DNA from: Naegleria gruberi
Taxonomy: Eukaryota
Length of the DNA stretch: 64,000 nt
Reading direction: 5' to 3' (one strand)
NCBI GenBank assembly: GCA_000004985.1
Contig: GG738857.1
A program made the translations under genes and the position numbers. A model generated the notes under the pieces. It was not told the origin of the DNA and did no database searches. It saw only the letters and a program-made list of their open reading frames with translations. Positions 6,059 to 46,556 of the stretch are shown here, one piece after another (the stretch's first letter is position 1; each line of letters opens with the position of its first letter).

Positions 6059-6411
6059 ACTGACTTTTACTTTCTCCCAATATCAGCGATCTTTTCTCCC
6101 GTTGTTTAACTTTAAATACTTCAACTTTCTATATCTTCACATCCACAACTGTTATACTATCATATCTGAAAATATTACCTCTCTTCTCCAAGTAATTATC
6201 TAGAACGAGCTGTTCTAAACTGTCGATAGGTTTTTTAGCTTGAACTTTTCTTCGTCAAAGAGTTGGGACTATGCAGATGTGGAGAGTGTATGTGAAGAGA
6301 ATCTTGATAAATGTAATTATTGTGCTCATAGGAATGTTGAGCAAAAGTCTAGTTGTTATGTTTTTCTGCAAATATGAAATTGAAATTGCAAATAAAGTTC
6401 ATTAATAAAAA

Positions 6412-7353
6412 ATGTCGCAACTTGAAGACCCATCTTGATAAATTCTCTTCCCATAGAATTAATTTTGGATATTTATTCATTTTGCAATTTGGATGATTTA
6501 CGTAATTTAATGTTGTCTTTTTCACAATTTTATGAATTGTTGAAAAGTTCGGAAGCATATAGAGTGTGGATGATTCAATTACATCATCTCGATCTTATAC
6601 GAAACTCGAAAGAGAGAAAAACAAGGAAACAATTCAAGAATTTTTCCTTTTTGGAATTGAGTGATAATTTCGAAAGAGTTGGAAAGAATGGTTCCATTGA
6701 AAATAGAACGACAGTAATAATGAAGGTAATTCGTAAACAGTTACATTATTGTATTTTGAAGGAATTGGGTAGTGCAACTTTTTTAGAGAAATGCCATGAA
6801 AGACCAAGGTATTTGGAGGATTTTAGAGATTTGGTGATTGAAAAATTGACCAAAACTTGTGTCATTACATCGATGAATAGATATTTACTGGAATATGATC
6901 CATTCTATTTGTTTAAATATTCTAGTACAAGTACGATTGATCAGATCTTTTTGCAAACAGTTTGTAGATTTATGTTTTTGACAGAAAGTAGTTCTTTTGG
7001 AAGTGATAGTCCATTTCTCCAAACTTGGAAAAAAATGTCAAATAATCAATTGGAACCTAATGTTAAAATTTGGAAGGAAGTTTACCAGAAAAGGTTTTGC
7101 AAGAATACCAAAGCTTGTTTGTTGGCCTATTCAACTGCCTTATTATTTACATGACGGAGAATACAAGACAGCTAGTGAGTTGGTGAAAGAAGAGGGCAGA
7201 TTGAAATGGTTACCACGTTTCATTGAAGAGTTTGAATGTGGTGAAGAATTCAAAAATTTGACGAATCCAAACTGTGAGGAAGCATTAGGATACTGCCAAC
7301 ACTATTTCTACAAGTTCAATATCAATACTGGAAAAAGGCAGTACTTTTATTAA
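6412..7353 (+). CDS. F-box protein, with two unresolved reading-frame changes
   Basis: F-box 'SLPIELILDIYSFCNLDDLRNLMLSFSQFYELL' lies in ORF 6435..7154. The only well-placed ATG (6412, AAAAAATG) is in a different frame and hits TGA after 8 codons. The C-terminal part continues in ORF 6997..7353. That junction needs either a 52-nt GT-AG intron (7062..7113) or a 1-nt change in the T4 run 7095..7098. Confidence 0.5.
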
Positions 7354-17847: not shown

Positions 17848-20068
17848 TCAATCAGATTGTTTATCACGCTTTTTGTTGTAATACTTTTGATAGCACGAAT
17901 TGCAAATCAAACCAAGTCCAATATCTTTTCCCAAATACTTGTTGTAATCATCGATTGTTGTGTAGGAGGTATTATGTTTGCTGGCGAGTGAAGTTGCACC
18001 TCCACAATTTACACATTTTGACAAGTGTTTCTTCAAGGAATTCAAATCTTCATCATTTAAACATTCAATTTCCTCCTCTTCGTCATGATCGTTATATTCT
18101 TCAATTTCATCTCTAGGTCCAGTCCCCAACTCTTCATCCATCTTGTCTTTGCGAATTGGTTTTTGAGTGGCAATTGAAACCACACATACAGTTTTATAAC
18201 CAACTCCGTACTCTTTCAAGTCTGCCTTTACGTTCAATTTTGACGGCCACCTTAAAGAAGTTTCTCTTTTTCTTATAATAGATGTGACTGGCAAGGTAAT
18301 CTTTTTCTAATTGTAATCTTAAATAGAAACAATGTTTGATAGGATCAATACTTCTATCAAAGTAAATCTTCAATCTGGTAAATCTAAGGAATTCTAGGAG
18401 TCCAATCCTTTCACAATTTTCCTGAGTGATGGTTTTAACTTTGTTAATATCAATCAGTGGGCTAAATCTTAATAGGAATAATTCAGTATCTTGTTTAACA
18501 TACATGTCAAACAGTGTACCATTCAACACAAGCTCCTTAATTGTTGAAGTTTTCCCATCCTGCTCTATTTCGCTCTCTTGTATCATAGCTGGGACAAATT
18601 GGTCCTCTGTTTCATTGGTGCTGTTGGTTCCAACAACTGAAGGTTCTTCTTTGAGAATCAAAGGAATTGACGCATTGGATGGGTTGTTATCATCTCTGGA
18701 TTTTAGAGATGATGTAATGATTGATTCAATACCTCTTAGAAGAGCACTACCACCAGAGCTTTCTTCAATAATTTCACATGATTCAACATTCTTATTCAAA
18801 TATTCATCTTTTAGGTAGGGGCTCAATTCTTTTTTAACTTGTTCTAATCTTTCAACTGAAACCATTTTTTCCAAACTTTTTCTAAAATACACTAGCTTGG
18901 TAATGGCTCCACAGAAATATAAGAGTTTAACACCATTGTGAAACATCATCATGGCCAATGGTTTGGTAATCTTCTCGAGTGCTTGTTGAATTTCATCTTC
19001 CAAATCTTGATAATGAGGTGGAAGTTCTTCACTCTCTGGATCATCAAATAGTTCAGCCATAGCTTCACATGGATCAATACCATGCTTGGTAAAAACGTCA
19101 TGAATCAATGAAATGCCACTTGCATTTCCATTCTTGAATGTTACAATCGGTTCCTTCTCTTTCATCTCAAGCATGATAACATCAAGAGTCAGATGTCCTA
19201 AATCAGCAATCATAACACCACTATTACTGACGAGTAAACTGGCATGGACAAAATGCTGCAAACAAGAACTCTCTTCCGTAATGTAGACGTCATTAAGATT
19301 GAGCGTGTTTGATGAAAGTCTTGTAAAGGCATCAAGAATCGCATTTCTATAAATCAACTTTACATAATCTGATGTACCAGTTGGACATGTGAAAAACAAT
19401 GCGCTCACACCATGGAAATATGACTTGTTGCGTGTTTTTTTAGTGGTCAAATTTTTGAAAATGTTTGTAGTAATTAATGAAATTAAATCAGCAACCCTTT
19501 CTCTTCTGCCACCCTTGAACTCAATTTCTAATAACTCTGAGACCATGAACACCTTTTTGATATTCTCAATTTCTTCCCATGATGATGGGGATGTTGAGAC
19601 CTCTTCAGGAGAGCCAGTTTTTACTTCAGGAGAACCAGTTTGGTTGACCCTTATCCAAGATCTACTTGGAAGAAAATCTTTTTTGTCTCCATCAAACCTC
19701 AAGAATCTGCAGAGAAGGTCGGTTCCTTCTTTCGGTACAGTACAATTACATGCCTTAATAAAACTTGAACCCATATCAATATAATAGATTGTCTTTCCAA
19801 TATACTTGGAAACGTTGAATTCTTTTTGGAGAGAAGGAAGATTATCAACTGATTCCAAACTACTTGGTGCAACTTTGGATTTGGTTTGAGTTCTAACGAC
19901 TTGGAAGGCTTCTTGTCCATCGTAAATTACTTGGTGGACATGTTCGTTTATATCCTCAGCTTGATTGTTCTCTTCTGTTTTCTTGTCGGTGGTTGTTTTT
20001 CGTTGTTTTGGCACTGGTTGGTGTTTACAGTCTTTCCTCTTGCTGTTTTTCCTTTTTCTTGCTGGCAT
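17848..20068 (-). CDS. Highly divergent Hsp70/actin-fold (ASKHA)-like protein with acidic linker and C-terminal CxxC...CxxC zinc-finger-like tail
   Basis: Two-exon model: 18331..20068 and 17848..18287, joined by a 43-nt intron 18288..18330 (GTTTCT..CAG, phase 1) that links the two overlapping track ORFs. Degenerate Hsp70-like motifs occur in the right order (YYIDMGSSFIKA; FFTCPTGTSDYVKLIYRNAILDAF; VMIADLGHLTLDV; GGSALLRG). The tail reads CVNCGG...LICNSCYQKY. Confidence 0.45.
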
Positions 20069-20706: not shown

Positions 20707-23079
20707 TTACATGAATTGAGAAAAAAATTCCTCAATATTATCCAACACCTTGTCAAAAGTAACCTCTTTGAGTTCTTTTAGTGGTTCAAGATGCGAGACA
20801 TCATGATCTGTACGCTTCTCCTCATCGTCTGTACACTTCTCTTTATCCTCTTTCTTGCCAGATCTAAAATAACAAAAAGGAGTCCAATAGAATATTTCAC
20901 CAGCAGCCTTTCCACAAATAACAATGTCCTCAAACCCACAAACGATAGCACAATAGTGGAAATCGTACTTTCCTTTCACATAGTATAAATTCTTTTCCTT
21001 ATATTCAAAATCGTAGACATCACCAATTCCATCTGAATAAAATCTCATAGAATCTTGCAGAGCACGATATTTCTGCGAAAATATTGAGTCTCTCTGGATT
21101 GATCTATATTCTGCAATGAGATCTAAAACAAAACCATACACTTGATCTTTGATTTTTGGATTTCTTGTTTCGGCTACATCTCCATACTGATGATGAGTTG
21201 TCGGTTCCTCATCTACCCAAAATATTGTAAGAGGATCAAGATCTTCAACATCCCCTATTTGTGCTGGTTCAATTGAAGCAGATAGAGTCTTTCTTCTTCT
21301 TGTTGGTATTTCAATATTTTCCCAAACAGATTGATTCATCACAGATTCACAAGGATTTTCATCCTTTCTAATATTAATGAGGTATCCTCTAAGAAATACA
21401 ATACACATTACAGAATTACACAATGACTCAAAACTTAGTTCCTCAAGTCCTGAGATGTGTTTTTGCACTGCATTTTGCACAAGACAATCATCAGAGCCAA
21501 AGCATTCTTTCTCAAATATATTTTCTGCTGGATCTAAAATATGAATCTTGAAGAATTCGTAGGGGTTTGTTGAATCACTATCTTTTTCAGGTCTAAAATG
21601 TACAAGTTTAAACGTTCCACCATTTGACTTTCTCAAGGTTACTATATAGGTTTGTTCTCCATCATTATCATAACATTTTCCTGAAATGAATTGATTTGCA
21701 ATATGTGGTAAACAGAATTTGGTTGCAATTTCAGAGGAAACAGAGAAAGAGGCCACCGATCTATAAGTTAAATCCATTACATATTTGGCCATATTTTCAG
21801 TGTGTTGAGAATCATCTCCAAATTTCATTAAATCAATTAAGGAATCAATTTGATGCGTTAATGGACACCAACGATAATCCACACCATCCCTTTCCTCACG
21901 AAATTTCTCATTTCCAAAATAACTAACAGGTGCACGAAGCTGCTGTTGCTGATTTTGATTATTATTCTTTTTCTTCTTTTTACCTGGTTGTTGATTGACT
22001 GGAGGGGGTGGAGGTGGAGGTGGTGGAAGAGGAGGGGGTGGTGGATTTTTAGCATACTCATAAGAACTCAGAATGCAATCCAAATAACGATCTATCTTCT
22101 TAACGCCTGCAATTCCTAACATTATTCTAAAGAATACCTCCATTTGAAAATTTCCCCTAATTGTAAACAATAAATTGTCAAAAGAGCTATCAAATATTCT
22201 TTTCTGCGAAATTTCAACCAATTTTTCCAATGAGGAATCGTTCAATTCCCTTGCCAAATAATAATGACCAACTCCCCTTGTTAATTTCACATTCTGATGC
22301 AAGACAACTGGCTCATTAGCGCATGTGAAAAATTTCACATGAATTGATGAATAAATATCTTCTTCCTCCTCTCGCTCATCATCACCACTATCCTCGTCCT
22401 CCGAATGATAATAATCATCCCTGCAACTTTTTAATCTGCTTTTAATCTGAGTTTTTTGGATTTAAATAAATCTTGAAGTCAAAAATTTGCTTGACTTTTT
22501 TGCAGATTTTTTTGTTTTGATTAAAGCTGAAAAAAAAAACGTTCGTATAATCTTTGCGAGTTAATAGGTGTTTTTTGGTTTTATTTGAAGCCTGCTTTAT
22601 GGATTTAATTAAATCTTGTTGNNNNNNNNNNNNNNNNNNNNNNNNNNNNNNNNNNNNNNNNNNNNNNNNNNCAATAAAATCCCAACACTTCAATCAATCC
22701 ACTCTTGAAATAAAAGTTATGAGCATTCAATGAATGACAATTCACCTTTCCCAATGTTTCCTCAATATCATGAATCATCAATGGATGACTAAATTCCACA
22801 CCTTGTGCAATATATAAATTACGTAAAAAACCATCAAGTCTATATAACATTGCCTTTGCTTGTTTGTTTTTATCATTCATTTCATGAACATTTGAAGAGG
22901 AAGAATAATAGGCATGGAGAATCTACATAGGAGAGAATTGTATCAAGTATTTGAATACATGATGATAATGTTGTGAAGAGTGAAAACTTTTCATGTTTAG
23001 ATTCAATTTTCTTCTTTTTGTTCTTTGATTCAAATTCACTTGTTGGATCATCAAAATCTTCAACAAGTCTTTTTAACAT
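20707..23079 (-). CDS. Hypothetical protein with poly-proline tract; multi-exon, structure unresolved because of an internal gap
   Basis: The large ORF 20707..22338 stays open upstream to ~22461 without an ATG (acidic ...DDYYHSEDEDSGDDEREEEED...). ORFs 22605..22880 and 22882..23079 (ATG 23079 in AAAAAAAATG context) are probably upstream exons. A 73-nt GT-AG intron candidate would link the last two. The N gap 22622..22671 interrupts the model. Confidence 0.45.
22622..22671. other. Assembly gap (50 N)
   Basis: Run of N in the sequence. Confidence 1.
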
Positions 23080-34162: not shown

Positions 34163-34303
34163 TATTTATTTTGATGGAATCATTCTTGAGAAGTGATACC
34201 ATCATTCCATTAGAGTGGGTCCAGTCTTTGTGCTATTCTTTGAATCCAAATTTTGAGGAGAAGGACAAATCAAATTGATAAAAATTCTACCATGGCATTC
34301 CTG

Positions 34304-34327
34304 TGTCAAAAGTGAATTGACGAGTCA
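34304..34327 (+). promoter_or_regulatory. Candidate promoter-proximal element: TGTCAAA plus the 16-mer GTGAATTGACGAGTCA
   Basis: The 16-mer at 34312..34327 is identical to 40505..40520. TGTCAAA at 34304..34310 recurs 25-80 nt upstream of four cluster ATGs. Confidence 0.4.
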
Positions 34328-34334
34328 ACAAAAA

Positions 34335-35500
34335 ATGCGTAAATCAACATCTGAAAAAACTCTTCCAGAAACAATCAACATAAAAAACCCATCCGAAGAT
34401 GAAAAATCCACTCTCCAACAACAAGATTGGTTTTGTGAATTAGTTTCAACCTACACAGAGCACAAGATAAACGCACTTGAGAAGGAAAATCAAAACCTAA
34501 TCCAAAAGTTGTTGGCTCTAACAGTTGATCAACGCTATATTAAATTTCTTGAATCTATTCCTTCATTGATGCAAAAACAACAAGAGCACAACAAACAAGG
34601 AAACTCTGACAATGAGTACAAAAAGTTAAACGAGAAGCTTGATGAAGTAATTGATGATTATGAGGACGTCAAGAGGAAATTAAAAAAAGCAGAAGAGAAT
34701 GCAAAAAAACCAAAGATGCTTTTGTTGAACAGCACTATTATAATGAAGAGAATATTAAAGAAATCACCAGGAAAGAAGAGAAGGTACGTGAAGAATTGGC
34801 TACCTTGAATGGAAAGTACCTTTATGAAAAGGAATCGTTCTTGAAACAAGTGTCCGAGTTAACAAAAGAAAGAGATCAACTAAATGATCAAATTTCAATT
34901 TACAAAACTCGAAATGATCCTGCCTTGCTGATGAATGACTTTTCTGATAACACAGTCAAAAAGATACATGATGAATATGTCACTTTGAAATCACACGATT
35001 TGAATTCTTTTGTGGGAAGAGTAGTTGAAGAACATTCATTAAGTGAAGATCAGGAATTTGATTTTGATTTAAAAATTGTTGCATTTGCATTCAAAACAGT
35101 CCGTAAACTCATTGAAGAAACCTATTCTGAAATGAATTTCGAACTAATTGGCAAGAAACTTACAAATGAAGAATCAGAAAGAAACCGCCTTATTGAAACC
35201 CTCGTCCAGACAATTGCAAAAATGGAAGAAATTGGAAAGAACAAGAAATTACAACAAGCTGCCAGAGAATTTATAACCAAACTCGTGAAATTCTATTGTA
35301 ACATGTTTCTCATTGATAAGAAGCTTGAATTGGTTTGGGCTTCAACTGGATCTCTCTACAATCCTGAATGGTACGATTCAAGAAATGCAACCAGTAACAT
35401 TGTAGTCACTAATGTTTTCAAACCTGCTCTCATGGACACATTCACCAAAACAGTCTACGAAAAAGGAATTGTTGAAACTACCCAAAAAAGGAAAAAATAA
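34335..35500 (+). CDS. Coiled-coil protein with conserved C-terminal domain (cluster family member 1); 1-nt frame break
   Basis: ATG 34335 (CAAAAAATG context). Frame A reads ...VKRKLKKAEENAKK, then frame B reads TKDAFVEQHYYNEENIKEITRKEEKVREEL... The switch is at the A7 run 34703..34709. The C-terminal domain begins 'KTRNDPALLMNDFSDNT' and ends '...LELVWASTGSLYNPEWYDSRNATSNIVVTNVFKPALMDTFTKTVYEKGIVET'. Confidence 0.65.
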
Positions 35501-35522
35501 CAATTATTACCTATATCAATAT

Positions 35523-38500
35523 TTATATTAAAACTCTCTTGTATGTAATTAAATATTCAGGATAGCATTGATTCCTATCATAGATAATATATTCATTGTA
35601 GGTGTGTTGTGATACCGACTTGGATCTTCCAATAACACTGTCATAAACTCTTCCATTTGAGTTTTCAATGACAGGTGGTCTTCTTTCATTTCTCATCTTT
35701 TCCCTTGTTTTGAAAACCATCTGACCTAACAGAACTCTACTGAGAAATATAAAACACTCACCATCCTTATTCGAAACACAATATTGATCACTCTTACTAC
35801 AGCAATCAGCAAAGTATATTCCAGCTCCAAACAAACCACTCAAAGCACTCAATCTTTCATCAAAGCCGTGTTCTGAAATGATTGACTTGACTACTTCTGT
35901 TGTTCCATGCCATAAATAAACTTCATTCACATTGGAATCTAATTCACACATTTCGTCAACAAAATCATTTCTAATTGGTATATCCATTACCTTCTTTTTA
36001 TCCTTATAGGAAATTAGGTGTTTCTTCTTTGATAGATACATTTCATAAAGTGATAAATTCTCAATTCTTTCCACTTTTAGAACTTGTAACTTGTTATATG
36101 GAAATGAATCTTTTTCATGGTTTCGTTTCTTTCCTAATGTAATTGTTACACATGTCTTATCCAATAAATCTTGAATATCCTCTTTTAATTCAGCGGTAAC
36201 ATCTATAATTGACATGTTATTTTGATTTGATTTCCAATAGGAAGGCTTTTGTTTCGTTTCCTTTCTTCTTGTCCCACGAAAGAATTCATGTCTTAATAAC
36301 TCAGATGCAGATAAAGTACAAATTTCTTCACGAATATTAATTGAGTCCATTAGCGTTTTCAAAAGAGATGAATATTCATCGAGTCGTTCCATTGACATGA
36401 TGTCAATTACCATTTTCACGAAACAAAACATTTCTTTCTGGAATGGTAATTTGTTTCCCTTTTCCTCTATTTTCACAACATTATCAAATCCATCCAATAT
36501 TAATTTAACTTGTTCATCTTCAATAATTTTCACATACACATTCGCAGCTCTAATATTTCCATGAACAAATGAATAGGTATGAAAATGATGAATGGCTGAA
36601 AGAATCTGAAACCAAATATCTTCCCATCCTGATCTAATGGATGAAAAATCTTTCAATGTTCCAATTGAGTAATATGGCATAACAATACAAAGTTTATCTT
36701 GACAAAGATAAAATCCAATTAATTCTGCAATATTTGAATGTTTGATTTTCTCTAGAATTTCAACTTGTTCAATTACCATTTCAATTTTATCCAATGAATA
36801 TTGTTTAACACGATAGAAAATATTCGAATTCTTATCAACTGCCTCAATAAGCATATAATTCAGAAATGCAGTTTCACTAATTGTAGTCAATTCCAAAGTG
36901 CTTACATCTTGAATTCCTATAATTTCTGATAGTAAATCATAGAATCCTGATCGATAGAGTGTAATTGATTTGTTTCGAATATCATTTCTGTTAATTTGAA
37001 GAGTTTCGAGTTCAGTTTCTTGTTCCATAATTTTTAGACAGGGCGCAGTTGATGTTGAGTTGTTTGTTTCCCACAATTTTTTCTCAATTTCAATTGATCT
37101 TTTGCGTGCTTCAATGTTCTCACTCATTAATTTGTAATTAATTCCATATTTAGAAATATCAAATTTAGAAATTATTGTTAAAGTTAATTGCATATTTTTA
37201 AATTCATTACAGATGGTAGTAATATTATTGATAAAATCAAGGCAATTATTTTTCATATCATCAATAAAGTAGCAATATCCTTTCAATTTCTTTTTCAATA
37301 AATGATACAATTCCAAATTTGGATTTTCTTTCAATAAGGAAAATAATTTTGAAATGGAATCTCCAATATCATTTGTATCATTGCTTATTTCTGAAAATTC
37401 AAGTGTTGAAATATTACTTGAAAAATTTGAAAGAAAATTTGCAACTCCACTCAATTGCTTATTACATGTATTAATCCATTTCTCCAAATTAGTCGAATAT
37501 TCTTCAAATGTTAATTCCAATTCTTCATAATTCGATATTTCATTACATGGAATTTCTTCTCCACCATTCAAAAATTCATTAATTTCTTTAGAAATTTCAC
37601 TCAAACTCTTTACAAATTCAATAAGAAAATTTCCATAATCACTTTTCTTAATTTGATTATTCATTGATTCATGGATTTGAAATTTGCTTCGAAATTCAAT
37701 TAAATCTTGAGGATTTTGTGATGAATAAATCGATTTTGAATTAATTTGGATAGGGCTGAGAAGATTCTTAATATCTGTAAACTTTTTCATGTCATATTCG
37801 TTAATTATGATATTTCTAATAAGTCTATCAGTGGTAAATCTTATAGTTTCCAATTGATTTTTCCTATTTTTGTATTCGAAACCTAATTGGGAAAGCTCTG
37901 TAAATATTGATGCAAAATGAATGAATTTAATTTCTATTGGAGATGTGCTAGTAGATGCTTGACTCACTTCTACATTAATTTCTTTTGTTTCCACATTAGT
38001 CTTATTTCTTTTTTCAGATTTCATTTCCTTTTGAATCGTTTTTATGGATTTCCCGCCACATTTCAATGCTATTGATATTTTGATATTAGGATGTTCTAAT
38101 AATAATTTTCACAATTTCAATTTTATCTCTTTCGCAAGCAACTTGCAAAGGTGTTTTAACCTTCCAAAATTGGTAAAATAAAAACTTGCAAATTAATACT
38201 TACCATCTTTAATCTTAAAACTCAATTAATTAAATATCAAACTTACATTCTGAATAATTCAATAAATGTATACTCATCATTAACAAGTTACTTACACCCT
38301 TATTAACATCCAATTCATTTGATTCCAATAATAATTTCACAATTTCAAGATGACCATCATAACATGCAATAAACAAACAAGTTTGTTCTGATTCTACACC
38401 ACAAAATGTCTTGAATAACAAGCTAATAAGTATTCATTTTGCTTCAAATCATACTTACTTCATTGACATTGACAAGTGACAGTAAATATTTGACAATCTC

Positions 38501-38782
38501 AACATTTCCACTTCTACAAGCATGATACAATGGAACCTAAACACATTTAACAATATATGATGATATAAAACCTACTCCGATTCTTGGATTTACCTTCTTT
38601 TCTTCTAACAAGTATTTTGTAATTCTTGTTGAATTATTAGAAATTGATTCTTCTAATAGAGTTTTGTTCGAAACAAGAGTTTTTGAAAAATCGGACAAGG
38701 ATTCAGCTAATGAAATGAATTGCTCTAAATTATCACTTGAAATTGACGAGATTACTTTCTTCTCAAGTTTCTTTTTCAACAT
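35523..38782 (-). CDS. Ankyrin-repeat / pseudokinase-like / PARP-catalytic-domain protein; 1-nt frame break
   Basis: Exons 38576..38782, 38459..38536, 38296..38409 and 35523..38160, with introns of 39, 49 and 135 nt. Ankyrin units: VPLYHACRSGNVEIVKYLL; TCLFIACYDGHLEIVKLLLESNELDVNKG; KTPLQVACERDKIEIVK|LLLEHPNI, where | marks the frame break at the T4 run 38106..38109. The kinase-like region lacks the catalytic Asp (HGNIRAAN where HRDxxxxN is expected, DGF where DFG is expected). The C-terminal PARP signature is H (LWHGT), Y (GAGIYFA), E (YNEYIIYD). Confidence 0.75.
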
Positions 38783-38800
38783 TTTTTTTAAACTAAACTT

Positions 38801-40432
38801 TTAATTCTTTTTTGACACTCTGACAATTACTTTTGCCTTCTCATAAATACTTCTCGATTGCAACTGCATTAGGGATGGAAAGACTGTGCACTGAATCTTT
38901 GGAATGGTTGTGTTATTTCTTGCATCTTGTTCGTATGGATTAAAATTGTCCTTTGCTTTATACCAAACGAATTCCAACTTTTTTGAATTGGTAAACATTT
39001 TCATGTAGAGTTCAATTGCCTTATCAAGTAATTCTGAGGTTAGATTACTAACTTCCCGATCTCTACAAATATGCTCAGGATTCTCAACTTTGAATTTGTT
39101 GAAAACGTGTTCAATGGAGGTGAAAATCTCATTGTGGCAGCTTTTGAGTAGTTTTTTCTTATCTGAATCTTCCAATGGCTTGCATCCATAACCTAATTTC
39201 TTGTCTTTCAATCTGTGTTGTAATGATTTGCCCTTATTGTCGTCTTGAGCTGGTGAAAAGAGGTATTTGGCTAATTCCATTTCAATTTCACATTCAAAAT
39301 CTTGTGCTACATCATCTCCATTAAGATTTTCACTCATTTCTTCACAAAGAGAACCCAATGAATTCTTAATTTCAAAATAAGCATCCTTAATTGACTTGGT
39401 GGTATTGTCGGAGAAATTGTTCATCTCAAGAGCTGGATCATGTTCTGCTTTGACAATTCTAAAATTATCTTCAAGTTGAGCAATCTTTGATTCTAAACCA
39501 TTTTTCAGTTCGATTAGTGCTTCTTTTTCTTTCTCAAATCTTGATTGGTTTTCACTTGCTTCGGTTCTCATTCTGTTTTTATCCTTTTCCAGATTTGAGA
39601 TTTTACTTTCAAGAGATTGAAGGTTTGCCTGGAGTTCAAGTGTGTCATTTTTAAGATCCTTATTATCACTTCTCAAATCTTCAAGCTTTTTGGTTGTATT
39701 TTTGTGGCTGTCTTGTTCAGTCTTCAACTTTTGTTTAGTTTCATCATGTTCACTTCTCAATTTGTTGAAATTCTTTTCTAAAGTGTCCTTTTCCTTCTTG
39801 AGATCTGTAAATTCTTTTTTCTTTGTATTCAATTCAGTAATCTTTTGATCTTTTTCACTAACCAATTGCTTTTCACGGTTCTGCAAATCATCATTTTCTT
39901 TCTTTAATTTCTTCTCATTATCTCTTGCTTCATTGCTTTCTTTGGTTAATTTTTTAATTCTTTCATCTTGATTTTGGGATTTTTCTAATGAGATTGATTT
40001 AAGGAATTCAACAAGTTTCTTATCAACTTGTACAGTGTCTAATATGTCTCTTAATCTGTCAACTTCCTTGGTATGCTTTTCTGACTCTTCCTGGATGTGG
40101 TTAACTTTGTTTTTTTCCTTATCAAGATTACTTTGGAGAATAGAAACTTGTTTTCTTTGACTCTCTAAATCTTGTTTAACCTTGTCAAGTTCGTGTTGGA
40201 GGATTTGTGCTACATTCTTTTCCTGGTCCCAATTACTTTGCAGATTGGAGGTTGTTAGCTTTTCTTTATTAAAGGCCTCTTCAATTGACTTGAGTTGAGT
40301 TTGAAGTTGTGAAATTCTTTTTTGATAATGGGAGGGATCTACTTCTTGTGTTGGGGGTGGAACATCACTTGTTGGTTGTTGTTGGGGTTTGATGGTGGAT
40401 GATGGTTTATTTGAATTGGATTCGTTTGTCAT
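38801..40432 (-). CDS. Coiled-coil protein with conserved C-terminal domain (cluster family member 2)
   Basis: I place the start at ATG 40432 (AAAAAAAATG context), not the track's non-ATG start at 40528. A long heptad-rich K/E/Q/L region is followed by 'KAEHDPALEMNNFSDNT...LEFVWYKAKDNFNPYEQDARNNTTIPKIQCTVFPSLMQLQSRSIYEKAKVIV'. Confidence 0.75.
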   Translation of the reverse strand: MTNESNSNKPSSTIKPQQQPTSDVPPPTQEVDPSHYQKRISQLQTQLKSIEEAFNKEKLTTSNLQSNWDQEKNVAQILQHELDKVKQDLESQRKQVSILQSNLDKEKNKVNHIQEESEKHTKEVDRLRDILDTVQVDKKLVEFLKSISLEKSQNQDERIKKLTKESNEARDNEKKLKKENDDLQNREKQLVSEKDQKITELNTKKKEFTDLKKEKDTLEKNFNKLRSEHDETKQKLKTEQDSHKNTTKKLEDLRSDNKDLKNDTLELQANLQSLESKISNLEKDKNRMRTEASENQSRFEKEKEALIELKNGLESKIAQLEDNFRIVKAEHDPALEMNNFSDNTTKSIKDAYFEIKNSLGSLCEEMSENLNGDDVAQDFECEIEMELAKYLFSPAQDDNKGKSLQHRLKDKKLGYGCKPLEDSDKKKLLKSCHNEIFTSIEHVFNKFKVENPEHICRDREVSNLTSELLDKAIELYMKMFTNSKKLEFVWYKAKDNFNPYEQDARNNTTIPKIQCTVFPSLMQLQSRSIYEKAKVIVRVSKKN

Positions 40433-40454
40433 TTTTTTTAAAGACGTACGAAAA

Positions 40455-40536
40455 TTTGACGAGTTGTAATGTAATTTTGAAACCTGCATTCCGTGTTCCG
40501 TTCTGTGAATTGACGAGTCATCATTCACTTGTCAAA
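40455..40536. promoter_or_regulatory. Divergent promoter with repeated TTGACGAGT / TGTCAAA motifs
   Basis: The 134-nt region between ATG 40432 (-) and ATG 40567 (+) contains TTGACGAGT at 40456..40464, GTGAATTGACGAGTCA at 40505..40520 and TGTCAAA at 40530..40536. Confidence 0.4.
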
Positions 40537-40566
40537 TGTTTAACTATCAAACAAATAATCAAAAAA

Positions 40567-41778
40567 ATGGGATTCTTTGGGTTTTTCAGTGATGACAATA
40601 AAGAAGAAATAAAGAAGGAGTTGAAGGCGGCAAAGGAACAAATTGAATACCAAAAGAAAGAGGTAGAAAGCCAGCGAAACAAAATTATAACATTAGAAAC
40701 AAATAACACCAATTTGCAAACTAGAAACACAACTTTACTCCAAGAATTTAAAATTTTAAACCCGAAACTTGAAAAATTAACACTTGAAAAACAAAATTGC
40801 GAATATATTTCCTCTCAATATCAAGCAAAAGCACAAGAATTGAACAAGAAATTACAAGAACTCGACAAGCAGTACAATTCCACTGTTCAAAATCTCAACA
40901 CTGAATTACAATCTTGTAAATTTCAATTCAATCAAGCAATCACTGAGTGGAAGCAAGAGAAGAACAAATTTGAATTAGAATTGAAAAGTGTAAAACAATC
41001 AAGAGATCAACAAATTTCTTATTCCACTCAATTACATTCAGCATTGACTGAAGAAAGAGAGAATTTCATAAACTTGTCCCAAACCAAAGAACAAGAAATT
41101 GAAAAGTTGAAAGCTGACATTATTTTAATCAAAGCTCAAAATGATCCAGCACTTGTTGTCAATGATTTCTCAGATGAAAGTCCTAAACAAATTAGAGATT
41201 TGTATCTTCAATCAAAATCAAGTATTGACACTTTGACAACAACCTTGGAAGACAATTTGACAGAAGATGAACAAGAACAATTGGAAATTATTATAGCCAA
41301 GACACTCTTTGAGAAATTAGAAGAGACTGTTATGAAATTTGTGTGTGAAACAAAACAAGTTGACAGCAGTGATAGAAAGCTCATTGGTGAATTATTGAAA
41401 TCAGATATTGAAATGAGAAAGCTTGTTATTTATCATACTTCAGTTGGATTAATGAATCAAATTAAGGAACAATTTGCCAGTTTTAGTAATTTTATTGAAA
41501 ATTGTAAAGATGAAGAAAGAATTCAAATTCAAAATGAAATTGACACAATGTCAACAAGTTCAATTTCAATGCTAGCAATGATCTTGAGAAATGAGCAAAA
41601 TATTGGTTTCGTTTGGTATAAACCAAAATCAGATTTCAATACTTTAGAACAAAGATCAAGAAATGCTGATAAGAAAATTGTAATTGATACTTGCATTTAT
41701 CCTTGTTTAATGTTGAAGGGATCAAGAAGTGTTTTTGAACAAGCAGTTGTTACAACAAAATTAACAAAACACAAATAA
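40567..41778 (+). CDS. Coiled-coil protein with conserved C-terminal domain (cluster family member 3)
   Basis: ATG 40567 (AAAAAAATG context). Coiled-coil N-terminal half, then 'KAQNDPALVVNDFSDES...IGFVWYKPKSDFNTLEQRSRNADKKIVIDTCIYPCLMLKGSRSVFEQAVVTT'. Confidence 0.75.
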   Translation: MGFFGFFSDDNKEEIKKELKAAKEQIEYQKKEVESQRNKIITLETNNTNLQTRNTTLLQEFKILNPKLEKLTLEKQNCEYISSQYQAKAQELNKKLQELDKQYNSTVQNLNTELQSCKFQFNQAITEWKQEKNKFELELKSVKQSRDQQISYSTQLHSALTEERENFINLSQTKEQEIEKLKADIILIKAQNDPALVVNDFSDESPKQIRDLYLQSKSSIDTLTTTLEDNLTEDEQEQLEIIIAKTLFEKLEETVMKFVCETKQVDSSDRKLIGELLKSDIEMRKLVIYHTSVGLMNQIKEQFASFSNFIENCKDEERIQIQNEIDTMSTSSISMLAMILRNEQNIGFVWYKPKSDFNTLEQRSRNADKKIVIDTCIYPCLMLKGSRSVFEQAVVTTKLTKHK

Positions 41779-41994
41779 ATATTTACAAATATTACAAAAT
41801 ATTTAAAAATATTGAAAAAATTACTGTAAATTTTGATCATCACACTAAATCTGCATTAACTTTCTACACAATTGTAGTTGACGGAATTTACGGAATTGAA
41901 AATTGTAATATGACTTAATTTGACATGGGAAGTGTCCATTTCAACACGTCATGTCAAAGTTTCTAATTATCAATTCTCAAAAAACAAAAAAAAT

Positions 41995-43871
41995 ATGAGC
42001 ACCAGCACCCTCATCAAACCACAAGCAGGTAAAAACTTTGTCGTTTGCATTGACTTTGGATCTTCAGGTTCTGGCAGTTCAATTCTCTTCGTAAAGGATG
42101 AAGATAAAATTTTCACTCTCAAAACTTATCCAGACTCCCCTAACGTAGTTTACAATAAGAATATGTCATGTATTTTATATGAAGATGGTAAGAGACATAG
42201 TATTGGTTATACTGCTAGAAAGACAATGTTCTTTGAAAATGATGACGAAGATTCAGATGAAGATTCCGGTGAAGATTCGGATAGAGATTCAGATAGTGAA
42301 AGTGAAGAATCTCATGGATCAACTTCAACTGCTCCATCAAAAAAATCAGCAACTCCACTAAAAGATAGAAAATTTATCAGAGATTTAAAAATTCAATTCA
42401 TGGAAGCAACAAAAGATGAGAAGGAAATTTCAATTCCAGAAATAGTAATTTCCAATGATGGAACAACCAAATCTTTACTTGATGTGATGGCAGATTACTT
42501 ATCCATGTTATTCACAGATTTTATCATGAAGAGTTTAAAGAATAACGATAGCTCTGTTAAGAAAACTGATGTTCGTTGGTGCATTACAGTTCCCGCCAAC
42601 TATTCAGAACATCAAAAATCCCTAATGAGGAAAGTGGCATGTAAGGCAAAGATTATAGATAAGGAAAATTGTGATGAGAGTGATTTGATTATCATTTCTG
42701 AACCAGATGCTGCTACCATGTTCTGTATGAAACATAAGGCTAAATCTAAACCACTTACAAATGGTGAAACTTTTATGGTAGTTGATGCTGGTGGTGGTAC
42801 TGTAGATGGTAAGTTTGAGAAATTCTTGATTTAACATTTAAATTCTGTAACAGTCAGTTGTCATATGCTTGAAAATGGTAAATTGAAAGAGTTGGCAGTT
42901 CAAAAGGCAGAGCTATGTGGTTCTACATTTATTGATAGAGAATTTATTAAGATTTTAGAAGAAAATTGTGATAATTTCAAAGAATTTACAGAGAAAAATC
43001 CAGAAACTCTTGTCAAGATATTATCAATTTGGGAAGATGTTAAGAGAGGTACTTTGACAGTTGACAAGAAATTGACATTTGACACATCTCCAATGTTTAA
43101 AAAAGCAAAACCTAATAGTTCAATTTACAAATCAAGATCTACCAAGATTGCATTAACAGATGAACAAATGAAAAGAATATTTGACAGTCAAGTGTCAAAA
43201 GCACTCAAATTGATTGATGAAGTTTATAGAGATTATGAAGAAGATTATCCAAGTAGAAAGATGGATCACTTATTTATTGTTGGTGGTTTAGGAGATAATG
43301 GTTATTTCCAAAATCGTATTAAGGAAAGATTTGAAAAGAAATTTAAGGAAATTTTAATTCCACTTTTCTGTTCGACAGCTGTCATGGAAGGAGGTGCATT
43401 ACTTGCTAAGGATCCATCATTCGTTCAAGAAAATCAAAGTTATCATATGGTGTTGGTGTCATGGAAGAATTTGAAGAAGGGCATCATGCTGAAAGCAAGT
43501 ACAAGGTCATTAATGGTAAACATATGGCAGTTGACGTGTTGGATGTTTTTGTTGAACAACGTGAAGAAGTTGAAATTGATAGAGAAATTGTTAGAGAATA
43601 TGAATGTTTACCAGGTGCTACTCAAATTGATGTTGTTCTCTATTCATCTATTAAGAGAAGAGAAGCAATTCCTTATATTGATTCACCACTAGTTTCTAAA
43701 GAGGAAACAATTACAATTCCTTTTAGAGATTCATCAAAGGAGGCAGATAGAAGAGTTTTTATTAAATTCTTCTTTGGTAAATCAGAATTAATGATTACTG
43801 TTGAAAATGCACAAGGTGAAGTTAAGGAAATTAAGAGAGATTTTGAAGCAAACTCACTTGCCCTAAAATAA
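41995..43871 (+). CDS. HSPA12-type Hsp70-like ATPase (paralogue 1); 1-nt frame break
   Basis: Exons 41995..42808 and 42854..43871, with a 45-nt intron (phase 1). The junction GGGTVD|VSCHMLE matches GGGTVDLTCHKFE in the paralogue. Motifs: VVCIDFGSSGSG; WCITVPANYSEHQK; IISEPDAATMFC; FMVVDAGGGTVD; LFIVGGLGDN. The frame changes at the A4 run 43430..43433, after which the second frame gives ..SKLSYGVGV, aligning with RMRMTYGVKA in the paralogue. Confidence 0.75.
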
Positions 43872-44116
43872 ATAGTTGAAATTCCATTCACAAAAATCTT
43901 AATATTTATTAGTATGAGCGAAATATAACCTCAATATCATTATTACAATCTGATCTTTTTCGTTTATCAAAACTGTAGAAAGCTTTTTTTGAACTGTAGT
44001 CACTCTCGAATCGTGATTCATTGTAAAACTTGTCAAACTTACCGATCAGAATTCCGTATGACGTACGATTTCTCATTTCTCATCAGTTTATTCTGTTCCA
44101 TTAACACACAAAAAAA

Positions 44117-46556
44117 ATGTCATCATCAACTGTTCCTGTTCGTTCAGGTTCCCTCAACAAGAAGAAAGTTGTCATTTCCATTGATTTTGGTACATCAAGA
44201 ACTGGTTTCTGTTATTCACTCACCAATGATGTGAAAAAGACTCGAGTTAAGAATACCTCATGGAAAGATGCACCAAGTGGAGTTTCATTCCCAAAGACTC
44301 TCACTCAATTACTTTATGAAAAGAGTGATACAAGAAAACCTGTTGCTTGGGGTTACACTTCACTTGACATGTTGTCAAGAGAATTTGAAGATGAGAGTGA
44401 ATCTGATGAAGATGAAGAAGGTGGTGAAGAGATTCCAGCACAAAATAGCAAGTATTATCATTTCAAGACATTCAAAATGGGATTATTCAATAATCCATCT
44501 GGTATGGTGAAGGATACAACTGGTGTTTTTGAAAAGAATGTTGGTGAATTGATAGTTGACTATTTGAAATTATTATTCCATGATCAGATTAAGCCAACTG
44601 TTGAGAAATCATTGGGATCTAAATTGAATCTTGATGAAGTTACTTGGTGTTTAACAGTTCCAGCCATTTGGAAAGATGAACAAAAATCAGATATGAGATT
44701 AGCTGCTTACACTGCTGGTTTAACAAAGACACCTGAAGCATCTTCTGATGATTTTAAGATTATTCTTGAACCAGAAGGAGCTGCTGCTTATTGTATGGAA
44801 TATCAAGCTTCTAAAGGTAAACCATTGAGAGAGGGCGAATCATTCCTTGTTTGTGATCTTGGTGGTGGTACAGTTGACTTGACATGTCATAAATTTGAAA
44901 AGGCAAGATTGAGAGAATTAGCTGAAGGATCTGGTGATGCATGTGGTTCTACATATTTAGATGATGCTTTTATTATTTATTTGGAAGAATGTTTTGGTAA
45001 GAAATTTGTTGAAACCTTAAGGAAAAAGTATGGCCAAACTTATTTGGACATTTTAAAGATTTGGGAAAGAACAAAAGTTACAACAACAGATTTAACAAAA
45101 GATATTAATGTTGATATGCCTGGTCAATTAAGTAGTTTTTTAGAAAGTGCCAATGTTAAAAGTGATAAATTCAGAGCTAAAAGAGGTCAACTCAAAATTA
45201 CAAGTGAAGCTTTACAAACAATTTATCAAGATTCATTAGAAAAAACAAGAAATCTTGTTGAAAAGCAATTAGAAACAATCCAATCAGAGACTGGTAAAAT
45301 GGTTGATTATATTTTCATAGTTGGTGGTTTTGGTGCTTCCAAAGTAGTTCAAAACTTTCTAATTGACAATTTCTCTTCACAAGTTAAGGGAATTGTAATT
45401 CCAAATGAACCTGCTGAAGCTGTTGTTGATGGTGCTGCATTATTAGGTATTGATGATTCATTAATTTCAACACGTAGAATGAGAATGACTTATGGAGTTA
45501 AAGCTCAAAAAGGAAGTGAAGAAATATTCGATACTTTTGTAATTGCTAATCAAGAACTTGAAGTTGATCAAGGAATTTCAAGAGAATACAAAGTTCAAAG
45601 AGCTAATCAACAAGCTATGAAAATAATCATCTACAGCACTAAATTGAAATCAATTACAAAAGTTGACGAAACTAAATGTCATAAGATTGGTGAAATTCAA
45701 GTACATATGACAGATATGACAGGTGGCATGGATAGAATAGTGAAAGTTACAATGTATTTTGGTAGATCAGAAACTAGAGTTACTGCCATTGAAAAGAATA
45801 CTGGAATTGAGTATAGTGCATTAATTAAGTATGATGGTGAATTATTTTCACATGGTGAAAGTATTGCTGACACTCCACCAGTTCAACCTCACCATTTGTA
45901 AGTATAGAATGTTATATTGAAGTTTACAATTTCTAACTGTTAAAAGAATTTTTGCAAATGATGTTTCAGGATCAATGTGGGCAAGAGATGCTTTACCAAC
46001 AATGAGTTTACTTAAAGTAAGTATTCTTCCATGATGTTTTTTACTAATATTCAATTAGACCTCTCATAATAACAGAGTAGGAGCACTTTATGAAGCATGT
46101 TATGCCTTTTTAGAAACAAGAAAAGAAACTTCAGATATTTCATCGTGTATTCTTCATAATCATGATTCAATCATTATTTATGATAAAAAACCTGCAACTC
46201 CATCACTTGTTTCTGATTACATGATGAAATATAATGCCGACGGTGGCAACAACTTTTTAAAAGTATTCGAAACTGTCGAACAAGTTCTCAAATCGAGTAA
46301 TAACGAGGAATTCAAACCAATAGTTTTCTTTATGACAGATGGTGCTTGGCACGACGACGGAGCACCTGCCTACTTGGAAGGCTTAATGTTAAGATATCCA
46401 GATTTAACAGTTCATGTCATTAATTTGGGTAGTTCAATTAATTTTGAATTGATGAATAGAATTGCAAAGATTGGTAGAGGAACCATTTCAACATCTGGAA
46501 TGAGCGCTGTAGAATTGAAGAGTACCTATCTCAGCTTGCTTCCTTACTTGGATTAA
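44117..46556 (+). CDS. HSPA12-type Hsp70-like ATPase fused to a C-terminal von Willebrand factor A (vWA) domain
   Basis: Exons 44117..45897, 45947..46016 and 46059..46556, with introns of 49 and 42 nt (phases 2 and 0). ATPase motifs: VISIDFGTSRTGF; WCLTVPAIWKDEQKSDMRLAAYTAGL; ILEPEGAAAYC; FLVCDLGGGTVDLTCH; IFIVGGFGAS. The vWA MIDAS motif DVSGSM appears only after splicing, and a later FFMTDGAWHDDG follows. Confidence 0.8.

What the first reader, a model, noticed from the sequence alone, without database searches (positions are those of the whole stretch)
34703..43433. Single-nucleotide frame breaks at homopolymer runs, concentrated in the cluster
In three cluster genes, good protein sequence continues in another frame exactly at a short homopolymer.
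- A7 at 34703..34709: ...AEENAKK | TKDAFVEQ...
- T4 at 38106..38109: an ankyrin repeat reads ...EIVK | LLLEHPNI, and the canonical repeat is restored by removing one base.
- A4 at 43430..43433: the second frame aligns with the paralogue's ...RMRMTYGV.

No GT-AG intron of plausible size fixes the second or third break. For the first, a 65-nt GT-AG candidate (34668..34732) with a weak GTCAAG donor would also restore the frame, but I judged it unlikely (see rejected items). Similar problems occur in the F-box gene (C3 at 6429..6431; T4 at 7095..7098). These are either assembly or sequencing homopolymer errors or genuine recent pseudogenisation in a paralogue array.
Basis: seen in the sequence. 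Interest (0 to 1): 0.45.

Follow-up and report, generated by a model that had tools for sequence, protein, structure and literature searches.

The report
Recent frameshift lesions in Naegleria paralogue cluster
Three genes in a small cluster of Naegleria gruberi-specific paralogues have broken reading frames, and these are most likely real, recent inactivating mutations in the sequenced lab strain rather than sequencing errors, which is an ordinary case of gene decay.

Summary
The window is the Sanger-sequenced Naegleria gruberi NEG-M reference. Three public gene models match it exactly: NAEGRDRAFT_65180, 47537 and 79007.

All three frame breaks are real in the assembly, and no intron-like sequence bridges them. 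"Single nucleotide at a homopolymer" holds for at most two.

- **Break 3 (HSPA12-like gene):** this is not at A4 43430-43433. A 98%-identical orthologous contig from an environmental metagenome reads straight through. It shows NEG-M lacks 4 nt (ATAT of an (AT)3 repeat) at 43417/43418, and the A4 has the same length in both.
- **Break 2 (ankyrin-kinase-PARP gene):** this is confined to 20 nt. Comparison with the neighbouring ankyrin repeats places one extra A in GTGAAA(A)TTATTATT.
- **Break 1 (MIEAP-like coiled-coil gene):** this lies within about 50 nt that hold two A7 runs. That association is unlikely by chance (P about 0.02) but is not verified externally.

Thirty other runs of 7-9 bases in coding sequence are in frame, and conserved genes in the window splice canonically.

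The best explanation is recent slippage mutations, either pseudogenes or null alleles, in a fast-evolving paralogue array. Consensus error remains possible for breaks 1 and 2. One F-box "break" is explained by a canonical intron. Interest is low.

The parts
34335..34709 (+). g1, MIEAP-like coiled-coil gene, part read in the first frame. The public model NAEGRDRAFT_65180 (157 aa) runs on in this frame to the stop at 34806-34808.
   Evidence: The exact look-up found this truncated 157-aa product as XP_002679441.1.
34682..34688 (+). First A7 run inside the interval where the g1 frame switch can lie.
34703..34709 (+). A8 here would restore ...AEENAKKTKDAFVEQ... It lies in A_AAA_AAA register.
   Evidence: There is no downstream structure.
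34710..35500 (+). g1, part read in the -1 frame. It encodes the conserved C-terminal MIEAP-like domain (NDPALLMNDFSDNT...). It is absent from any public protein model.
   Evidence: PF16026, E=3e-4, below the curated cut-off. Alignment. In one search the best database match was only 31% identical.
38161..38782 (-). g2 5' region. Exons are 38782-38576, 38536-38459 and 38409-38296, encoding the N-terminus and ankyrin repeats 1-2. Introns are 38575-38537, 38458-38410 and 38295-38161.
38089..38108 (-). Interval to which the g2 frame switch is confined by stop codons. It lies inside ankyrin repeat 3.
38106..38109 (-). A4 on the coding strand (T4 on +). It has one base more than the homologous GTGAAATTATTATT of repeat 2 and is the probable 1-nt insertion.
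35523..38108 (-). g2 main open frame: end of ankyrin repeat 3, a kinase-like domain and a PARP catalytic domain. The public model NAEGRDRAFT_47537 (833 aa) starts at the internal Met at 38024 and omits the ankyrin exons.
   Evidence: PARP E=2e-25; Pkinase E=2e-10..
41995..43417 (+). g3, HSPA12-like gene, up to the lesion. Exon 1 is 41995-42808, the 45-nt GTAAGT intron is 42809-42853, and exon 2 starts at 42854.
43417..43418 (+). Site of the 4-nt deletion, (AT)3 to (AT)1, relative to the intact orthologue. This is the true break 3.
   Evidence: Orthology of L001 is shown by collinear 3' intergenic sequence.
43430..43433 (+). It is identical in length in the intact orthologue and is not the lesion.
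43418..43871 (+). g3 after the lesion, read in the shifted frame. It is open to the stop, is homologous to the paralogue, and is still mostly synonymous against L001.
38801..40432 (-). Intact MIEAP-like paralogue (543 aa, equal to database protein P0064).
40567..41778 (+). Intact MIEAP-like paralogue (403 aa).
44117..45901 (+). Intact HSPA12-like paralogue, used as the reference for g3.
   Evidence: HSP70 E=1e-14..

Best explanation
The three breaks are most likely genuine, evolutionarily recent frame-disrupting mutations in the genome of N. gruberi strain NEG-M. They may be fixed or carried on the assembled haplotype.

**Proposed lesions**
- g3: a 4-nt loss in an (AT)3 microrepeat. This is shown by comparison with an intact orthologue.
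- g2: a 1-nt gain in an A3 run, inside an ankyrin repeat. This is inferred from the neighbouring repeats.
- g1: probably a 1-nt loss from an A8 run. This is inferred only.

All three are the kind of change that replication slippage produces at short repeats.

**Setting**
They sit in a 12-kb array of lineage-specific, duplicated genes: three MIEAP-like coiled-coil genes, two HSPA12-like ATPases and one ankyrin-kinase-PARP gene. Redundancy and rapid turnover in such an array make loss of single copies tolerable.

**Consequence (inferred)**
- g1 would give a 157-aa protein lacking its conserved C-terminal domain.
- g2 would give an ankyrin-only stub, possibly alongside an N-terminally truncated kinase-PARP protein.
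- g3 would lose its last 150 or so residues.

These are young pseudogenes or null alleles, not a decoding mechanism.
For: **Identity of the sequence**
- Three public N. gruberi models match the window exactly, and each works around a break. One is truncated at the break, one starts after it, and one has an invented 62-nt 'intron' that deletes 21 conserved residues.
- The only assembly listed for this species is Sanger-based (PMC9928731 Table 1; PMC8040595).

**g3**
- L001 is a contig from metagenome ERZ929261. It differs from the window at 35 of 1769 aligned columns and is collinear into the 3' intergenic region.
- L001 has an uninterrupted frame. Its reading DPSYIRSRKSKLSYGV aligns without gaps to the intact paralogue's DDSLISTRRMRMTYGV.
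- The window differs by a 4-nt deletion in CATATATT.
- Codon differences are 12 synonymous against 7 non-synonymous, with 5 synonymous ones downstream of the lesion. The frame was therefore under constraint until very recently.

**g2**
- One extra A relative to the two sister repeats.
- The repaired protein scores as three ankyrin repeats.

**g1**
- Both halves match one paralogue.
- The switch interval contains two A7 runs (P=0.02 by chance).

**No intron rescue**
- Twenty-two real introns in the window average 45% T, 19% GC and 48% purine, and none is open in all frames.
- The g1 candidates are 17-21% T and 70-72% purine.

**No systematic homopolymer problem**
- Thirty other runs of 7-9 nt in 47.6 kb of coding sequence are in frame.
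- The MATE, BBS1, P450, PLC and PIF1-like genes read through with normal introns.
Against: - Only g3 could be checked against an independent sequence. No allele or orthologue of g1 or of the g2 ankyrin region was found, and the negative is unreliable.
- No reads, quality values or cDNA were available, so a consensus error at A7/A8 or A3/A4 cannot be excluded for g1 and g2.
- Each gene has a single lesion and is otherwise open. That fits very young pseudogenes, but it also fits errors or a heterozygous null allele.
- L001 is from another strain, so it shows the ancestral state, not the state of NEG-M's other haplotype.
Confidence: 0.7

Rival explanations
1. Consensus (assembly or base-calling) errors of one base in short homopolymers at g1 and/or g2. 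The genes would then be intact in the organism.
For: - Both proposed lesions are single-base run-length changes.
- Each gene is otherwise fully open.
- The assembly is a draft with gaps nearby (N runs at 22622-22671 and 62862-63022).
- No independent sequence was found for these two sites.
Against: - Sanger chemistry does not systematically miscount A3/A4 or A7/A8 (platform: PMC9928731, PMC8040595).
- Thirty runs of 7-9 nt elsewhere in coding sequence are in frame.
- Random consensus errors would not pick three of six genes in one paralogue array while sparing about 40 kb of other coding sequence.
- The testable break in the same cluster is a 4-nt deletion, which is not an error type.
Confidence: 0.17
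2. Heterozygous null alleles. NEG-M carries one intact and one frameshifted copy of each gene, and the assembler happened to choose the broken haplotype. The genes would then still be functional in the strain.
For: - Naegleria is described as mainly a heterozygous diploid with patches of loss of heterozygosity (PMC9928731, section 3.2.3).
- The lesions are very young.
Against: - No second, near-identical N. gruberi model exists for g1, g2 or g3. Their 90% clusters have one member each.
- Choosing the null haplotype three times in 9 kb requires the three lesions to be in phase on one haplotype.
Confidence: 0.08
3. Recoding or unusual splicing restores the frame in the RNA or on the ribosome.

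- g1: -1 ribosomal frameshifting or polymerase slippage on the A_AAA_AAA heptamer.
- g2: exon skipping from the GTAAGT donor at 38295 to the cryptic acceptor at 38028 (a 268-nt intron).
- g1: non-consensus introns.
For: - Both A7 runs in g1 are in X_XXY_YYZ register, and slipping gives the good downstream frame.
- The 268-nt splice in g2 is in frame and has a 6/6 donor.
- Non-consensus donors (GTTCGT, GTTTGT) do occur in real N. gruberi introns, as shown by the restored AGHETT and GDFLQLPPV motifs.
Against: - There is no structure downstream of the heptamer: MFE -5.5 kcal/mol, and 184 of 200 shuffles fold at least as well.
- The three breaks need shifts in different directions (-1, +1, and a 4-nt deletion), so no single mechanism fits.
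- The g1 candidate introns are exon-like in composition.
- For g3, the intron used by the public model is refuted by the intact orthologue.
- The g2 skip would discard a well-preserved ankyrin repeat.
Confidence: 0.04

Closest known systems
Young processed-free (duplicated) pseudogenes or strain-specific frameshift null alleles in birth-and-death multigene families
   Same: - A single frame-disrupting indel at a microrepeat in an otherwise open gene.
- Intact paralogues lie next door.
- At least one close relative has an intact orthologue.
- Substitutions are still biased towards synonymous changes.
   Different: Fixation, expression and loss of function were not measured. Two of the three lesions lack an outside comparison.
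Homopolymer-length errors of pyrosequencing, semiconductor or nanopore assemblies
   Same: Two of the breaks would be repaired by changing a homopolymer by one base.
   Different: - The platform is Sanger.
- Longer runs elsewhere are correct.
- One break is a 4-nt deletion outside any homopolymer.
Programmed -1 ribosomal frameshift sites (slippery heptamer plus downstream structure, as in retroviral gag-pol, dnaX or PEG10)
   Same: g1 has A_AAA_AAA in the correct register, and the -1 frame encodes the conserved domain.
   Different: - No downstream stimulatory structure.
- No evidence of conservation.
- Intact paralogues do not use a frameshift.
- The neighbouring breaks are of other kinds.
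Gene models with invented introns that bridge frameshifts in automated eukaryotic annotation
   Same: The public g3 model (XP_002679443.1) removes 21 conserved residues with a GTCATG...AAAG 'intron' exactly over the lesion.
   Different: This concerns the annotation, not the biology. g1 and g2 were truncated instead of bridged.

Membership tests
Sequencing or assembly homopolymer artefact | Data come from a platform with run-length errors | tested here: not met
   Window equals N. gruberi NEG-M. The assembly GCA_000004985 is listed as Sanger (PMC9928731 Table 1; PMC8040595).
Sequencing or assembly homopolymer artefact | Errors scale with run length and hit genes indiscriminately | tested here: not met
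   Thirty runs of 7-9 nt in coding sequence are in frame. Conserved genes are intact. The breaks are at A7, A4 and a non-homopolymer site in one paralogue cluster.
Sequencing or assembly homopolymer artefact | Run length differs from that in independent reads of the same strain | not testable with these tools
   No NEG-M reads or second assembly were reachable. For break 3 the run length equals that of a related strain.
Recent pseudogene or frameshift null allele | Reading frame disrupted relative to intact homologues, with homology continuing in another frame | tested here: met
   g1. g2. g3.
Recent pseudogene or frameshift null allele | Not rescued by a credible intron | tested here: met
   Intron search and composition test against 22 real introns. 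The g3 bridging intron is refuted by L001. A 268-nt exon-skipping splice in g2 remains formally possible.
Recent pseudogene or frameshift null allele | Lesion absent from the orthologue of a close relative (derived state) | tested here: inconclusive
   Met for g3 (L001). No orthologue was found for g1 or the g2 ankyrin region.
Recent pseudogene or frameshift null allele | Lesion truly present in the organism's DNA and transcripts | not testable with these tools
   Needs NEG-M reads or cDNA.
Programmed -1 ribosomal frameshift site | Slippery X_XXY_YYZ heptamer in the zero-frame register | tested here: met
   GC[A_AAA_AAA]CC at 34703-34709 and TT[A_AAA_AAA]GC at 34682-34688.
Programmed -1 ribosomal frameshift site | Stimulatory stem-loop or pseudoknot a few nucleotides downstream | tested here: not met
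   MFE -5.5 kcal/mol for 34703-34800, z=+1.24.
Programmed -1 ribosomal frameshift site | Site and two-frame arrangement conserved in relatives | tested here: not met
   Two window paralogues and five other family members are single open frames. No orthologue is available.
Spliceosomal intron at the break | GT...AG boundaries with correct phase and intron-like composition (T-rich, stops in frames) | tested here: not met
   g1 candidates are 17-21% T and 70-72% purine, against 45 +/- 6% T and 48 +/- 5% purine in real introns. g3 has only 4/6 donors. g2 has no short candidate. By contrast, the F-box 5' 'break' does meet this test.

The most novel reading that the evidence does not exclude
The A_AAA_AAA heptamer in g1, in the correct register with the conserved MIEAP-like domain in the -1 frame, might be a functional recoding site. 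Ribosomal -1 frameshifting or polymerase slippage would then produce a short product and a full-length product from one nuclear gene of a heterolobosean.
Probability: 0.03. Interest if true: 0.6.

Novelty: new member of a known kind. Interest (0 to 1): 0.15.

Why it matters
The value is mainly practical.

**Annotation of the reference**
- Three public N. gruberi protein models are artefacts of frame breaks. XP_002679441.1 is truncated, XP_002679562.1 lacks its ankyrin repeats, and XP_002679443.1 has an invented intron.
- These models should not be used as full-length sequences in comparative work on HSPA12-like, MIEAP-like or PARP families.

**Method**
- A near-identical environmental contig can separate a real mutation from a homopolymer error without any reads.

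**Biology**
- The finding suggests rapid gain and loss of copies in an unusual HSPA12-like / MIEAP-like / ankyrin-PARP gene array.
- The losses may have occurred in a strain kept axenically for decades. That link is inference, not shown here.

Tried and rejected
**Searches for independent copies of g1 and g2**
- A concatenated g1 plus g2 N-terminal protein search found no near-identical hit. This negative is unreliable: it missed P0061 and P0062, which share 190 and 157 identical residues with the query. Ankyrin words probably saturated the candidate list.
- A JGI metagenome scan with peptides found nothing.
- An exact DNA pattern across the A7 run found nothing.
- A full HMMER search of 1.84 billion representatives with the g1 downstream ORF gave only six distant relatives, the best 31% identical.
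- Exact look-ups of two short g2 exon ORFs found nothing.
- Exact look-ups of the 594-aa HSPA12-like paralogue and BBS1 ORFs, and of P0001, in the contig index found nothing.

**Exact look-ups of guessed models**
- Spliced g1 models with the 65-nt and 86-nt introns are not in the collection. The ankyrin-only g2 model is not there either.

**Intron explanations**
- These were rejected for g1 and g3.
- A GC-AG candidate in g1 (34689-34732, 44 nt) was considered by eye and rejected on composition.

**Recoding**
- Programmed frameshifting was rejected for lack of downstream structure.

**Literature**
- The 2010 genome paper is not held.
- No paper mentions PRJEB11402.
- No paper mentions Mieap together with HSPA12.
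Full report
**Source of the window**

The window is AT-rich eukaryotic DNA of about 31% GC, with long ORFs and very short introns. A conceptually repaired product of the third broken gene matched 'predicted protein [Naegleria gruberi]' (P0001) on a 573,072-bp record. It was identical except for one 21-residue gap.

Exact look-ups then found two more public N. gruberi proteins encoded verbatim in the window:
- XP_002679441.1 (NAEGRDRAFT_65180), 157 aa
- XP_002679562.1 (NAEGRDRAFT_47537), 833 aa

The window is therefore the NEG-M reference. Two papers list that assembly as Sanger-sequenced, and it is the only N. gruberi assembly they list (PMC9928731 Table 1; PMC8040595, GCA_000004985). Two N-gaps in the window (22622-22671 and 62862-63022) fit a scaffolded draft.

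**The cluster**

Between about 34.3 and 46.6 kb lie six genes:
- Three coiled-coil genes with a C-terminal domain faintly similar to Pfam MIEAP:
  - g1, 34335-35500 (+)
  - 38801-40432 (-)
  - 40567-41778 (+)
- One gene with three ankyrin repeats, a kinase-like domain and a PARP catalytic domain: g2, 35523-38782 (-)
- Two HSPA12-like actin-fold ATPases:
  - g3, 41995-43871 (+)
  - 44117-45901 (+)

**Break 1 (g1)**

The ORF 34275-34808 carries the N-terminal coiled coil and a VDQRYIKFLESIP motif shared with a paralogue. The ORF 34664-35500, in the -1 frame, carries the conserved C-terminal domain.

Both frames are open from 34664 to 34805. The first frame turns into junk (PKMLLLNSTIIM...) after 34709, so the switch lies within about 34664-34712. 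That stretch holds two A7 runs, and repair needs one added base.

In 47.6 kb of coding sequence, a random 49-nt stretch holds a run of 7 or more with P=0.02. The association with a homopolymer is therefore more than chance, although which A7 is responsible cannot be decided.

Candidate introns do not look like introns:
- The candidates are GTAATT (86 nt), GTCAAG (65 nt) and GTACGT (89 nt).
- The first two are 17-21% T and 70-72% purine.
- Twenty-two verified introns of this window average 45 +/- 6% T and 48 +/- 5% purine.

The heptamer is in A_AAA_AAA register, but the 98 nt from it onward fold no better than shuffles.

The public annotation simply stops at the out-of-frame stop codon, giving the 157-aa model. 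The downstream 278 codons have no counterpart above 31% identity among 1.84 billion representative proteins.

**Break 2 (g2)**

On the minus strand, three short introns join the N-terminal exons:
- 39 nt, donor GTAGGT
- 49 nt, donor GTAAGT
- 135 nt, donor GTAAGT

The third ankyrin repeat reads KTPLQVACERDKIEIVK and then continues as LLLEHPNI in the +1 frame. That frame is the 861-codon open frame (35526-38108) ending in the PARP domain.

Stop codons confine the switch to 38089-38108. A run of 4 or more occurs in a third of random 20-nt coding stretches, so the T4 by itself is not evidence.

Aligning the DNA of the three repeats shows GTG-AAATTATTATT in repeat 2 against GTGAAAATTATTATT in repeat 3. 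That is one extra A. With that base removed, Pfam recognises three ankyrin repeats.

The public model avoids the problem by starting at an internal Met and dropping the ankyrin exons. An in-frame 268-nt splice (38295 to 38028) that skips the damaged repeat is formally possible but unsupported.

**Break 3 (g3)**

The homology search also returned a 335-aa protein from a metagenome (P0002). Its 1929-bp contig is L001 (ERZ929261, run ERR1078381).
- L001 differs from the window at 35 of 1769 aligned columns.
- It has the same 45-nt intron, with a 1-nt length difference.
- It continues collinearly into the 3' intergenic region.

It is therefore the orthologous locus of a close relative.

L001 has one uninterrupted frame...AKDPSYIRSRKSKLSYGVGV.... 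This aligns without gaps to the intact paralogue's ...IDDSLISTRRMRMTYGV.

The only frame-changing difference is that the window has CCATC|ATTCG where L001 has CCATCATATATTCG. That is a loss of two AT units at 43417/43418.

Across 556 codons there are 12 synonymous and 7 non-synonymous codon differences, and 5 of the synonymous ones lie downstream of the lesion. The whole frame was therefore under purifying selection until very recently.

The public model bridges the lesion with a GTCATG...AAAG 'intron' that deletes 21 conserved residues. L001 shows this is an annotation artefact.

**Is the assembly generally unreliable at homopolymers?**

No.
- Thirty other runs of 7-9 identical bases in coding sequence are in frame.
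- Nearly every other ORF-to-ORF junction in the window is joined by an intron with a GTAAGT or GTATGT donor and a length of 42-160 nt.
- The junctions without a consensus donor restore textbook motifs when spliced: AGHE|TT in a P450 with a GTTCGT donor, and GDFLQ|LPPV in a PIF1-like helicase with a GTTTGT donor.
- The MATE transporter and BBS1 genes are intact.

**F-box gene**

A 17-nt first exon (ATG at 6271), a consensus GTATGT donor at 6288 and an acceptor at 6427 (140 nt) give MQMWRVPILINSLPIELILD... in frame. The short ATG-TCG-... ORF then lies inside the intron.

The second break (T4 at 7095-7098) stays open. A 55-nt GTTTGT...AG candidate (7117-7171) fixes the frame but is exon-like in composition. 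No public model of this gene was found.

**Interpretation**

Three points favour real mutations over homopolymer error:
- the Sanger origin of the assembly;
- correct long homopolymers elsewhere in the window;
- a demonstrated 4-nt microsatellite deletion in the one break that could be tested.

The breaks are concentrated in the cluster. Three of six cluster genes are broken, against at most two of about 23 others. My hypergeometric estimate is P about 0.005-0.05. This fits turnover in a redundant, lineage-specific paralogue array.

The lesions require different corrections (+1, -1 and +4 nt). That argues against any single recoding mechanism.

What remains inferred is that the g1 and g2 lesions exist in the organism's DNA. 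I could not find reads, cDNA or an orthologue for them. A heterozygous state is also not excluded.

**Verdict**

The frame breaks are real, one is mislocated and is not a homopolymer event, and one F-box break is an intron.

This is an ordinary phenomenon. It has some value for correcting three public gene models, but it is not a new kind of system.

Noticed in passing
window 44117-46556 (+): The stop codon of the intact HSPA12-like gene overlaps a consensus GTAAGT donor (CAT TT|GTAAGT). Splicing 45898-45946 and 46017-46058 joins it in frame to about 190 further residues that begin IFANDVSGSM (a DxSGS, MIDAS-like motif). These residues give a weak VWA_3 match (E=0.0025, below the curated cut-off). 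The gene may therefore be an HSPA12-vWA fusion of 782 aa.
   Followed up: partly
window 34335-46556: The gene neighbourhood is unusual: three MIEAP-like coiled-coil genes, two HSPA12-like ATPases and an ankyrin-kinase-PARP gene side by side. The MIEAP-like family has only six representatives at E<=0.001 among 1.84 billion proteins. No paper in the library mentions Mieap together with HSPA12. Its function is unknown, and it could be a stress or conflict module.
   Followed up: partly
window 17848-20068 (-): A 624-aa ORF (stop at 18194) and a 148-aa ORF (17848-18294, Cys-rich C-terminus CVNCGG...CNSCYQKY) overlap by about 100 nt in different frames. No credible intron joins them. This is either another frame break or two very tightly packed genes. 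There are no Pfam matches, and the junction-region segments of both ORFs included in the query found no public model.
   Followed up: partly
window 6271-7353 (+): The F-box gene seems to have no public protein model. A 17-nt first exon plus a 140-nt GTATGT intron gives it a proper start. The 3' frame change near 7095-7171 is unresolved.
   Followed up: partly
window 17007-17054 (+) and 60725-60567 (-): These are real introns with non-consensus donors that have T at position +3 (GTTCGT and GTTTGT). They are validated by the restored P450 AGHETT and PIF1 GDFLQLPPV motifs. This is useful for N. gruberi gene modelling.
   Followed up: yes
window 9708-11516 and 11742-13613 (+): These are tandem paralogues of about 600 aa. 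Their central regions of about 100 aa (FYDPTRNRRKRIENCETLFRMCDQYLTLIHIQSKNSLSFSLLDTFPYLYNFEEMQKIQPDNSILKNHEYLVKWFRKQSENLKKYL) are identical while the flanks have diverged. This looks like recent gene conversion.
   Followed up: no
database proteins P0063 and P0067: Two MIEAP-like database proteins share an identical segment of about 180 aa but have different ends. One continues into leucine-rich repeats. This suggests further split, fused or mis-modelled members of the family elsewhere.
   Followed up: no
vs 35, 36 and 47 (tool behaviour): The word-indexed protein search missed two identical N. gruberi proteins (157 and about 190 shared residues) when the query contained ankyrin repeats. 'No hit' from that tool is not reliable for repeat-containing queries.
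   Followed up: yes
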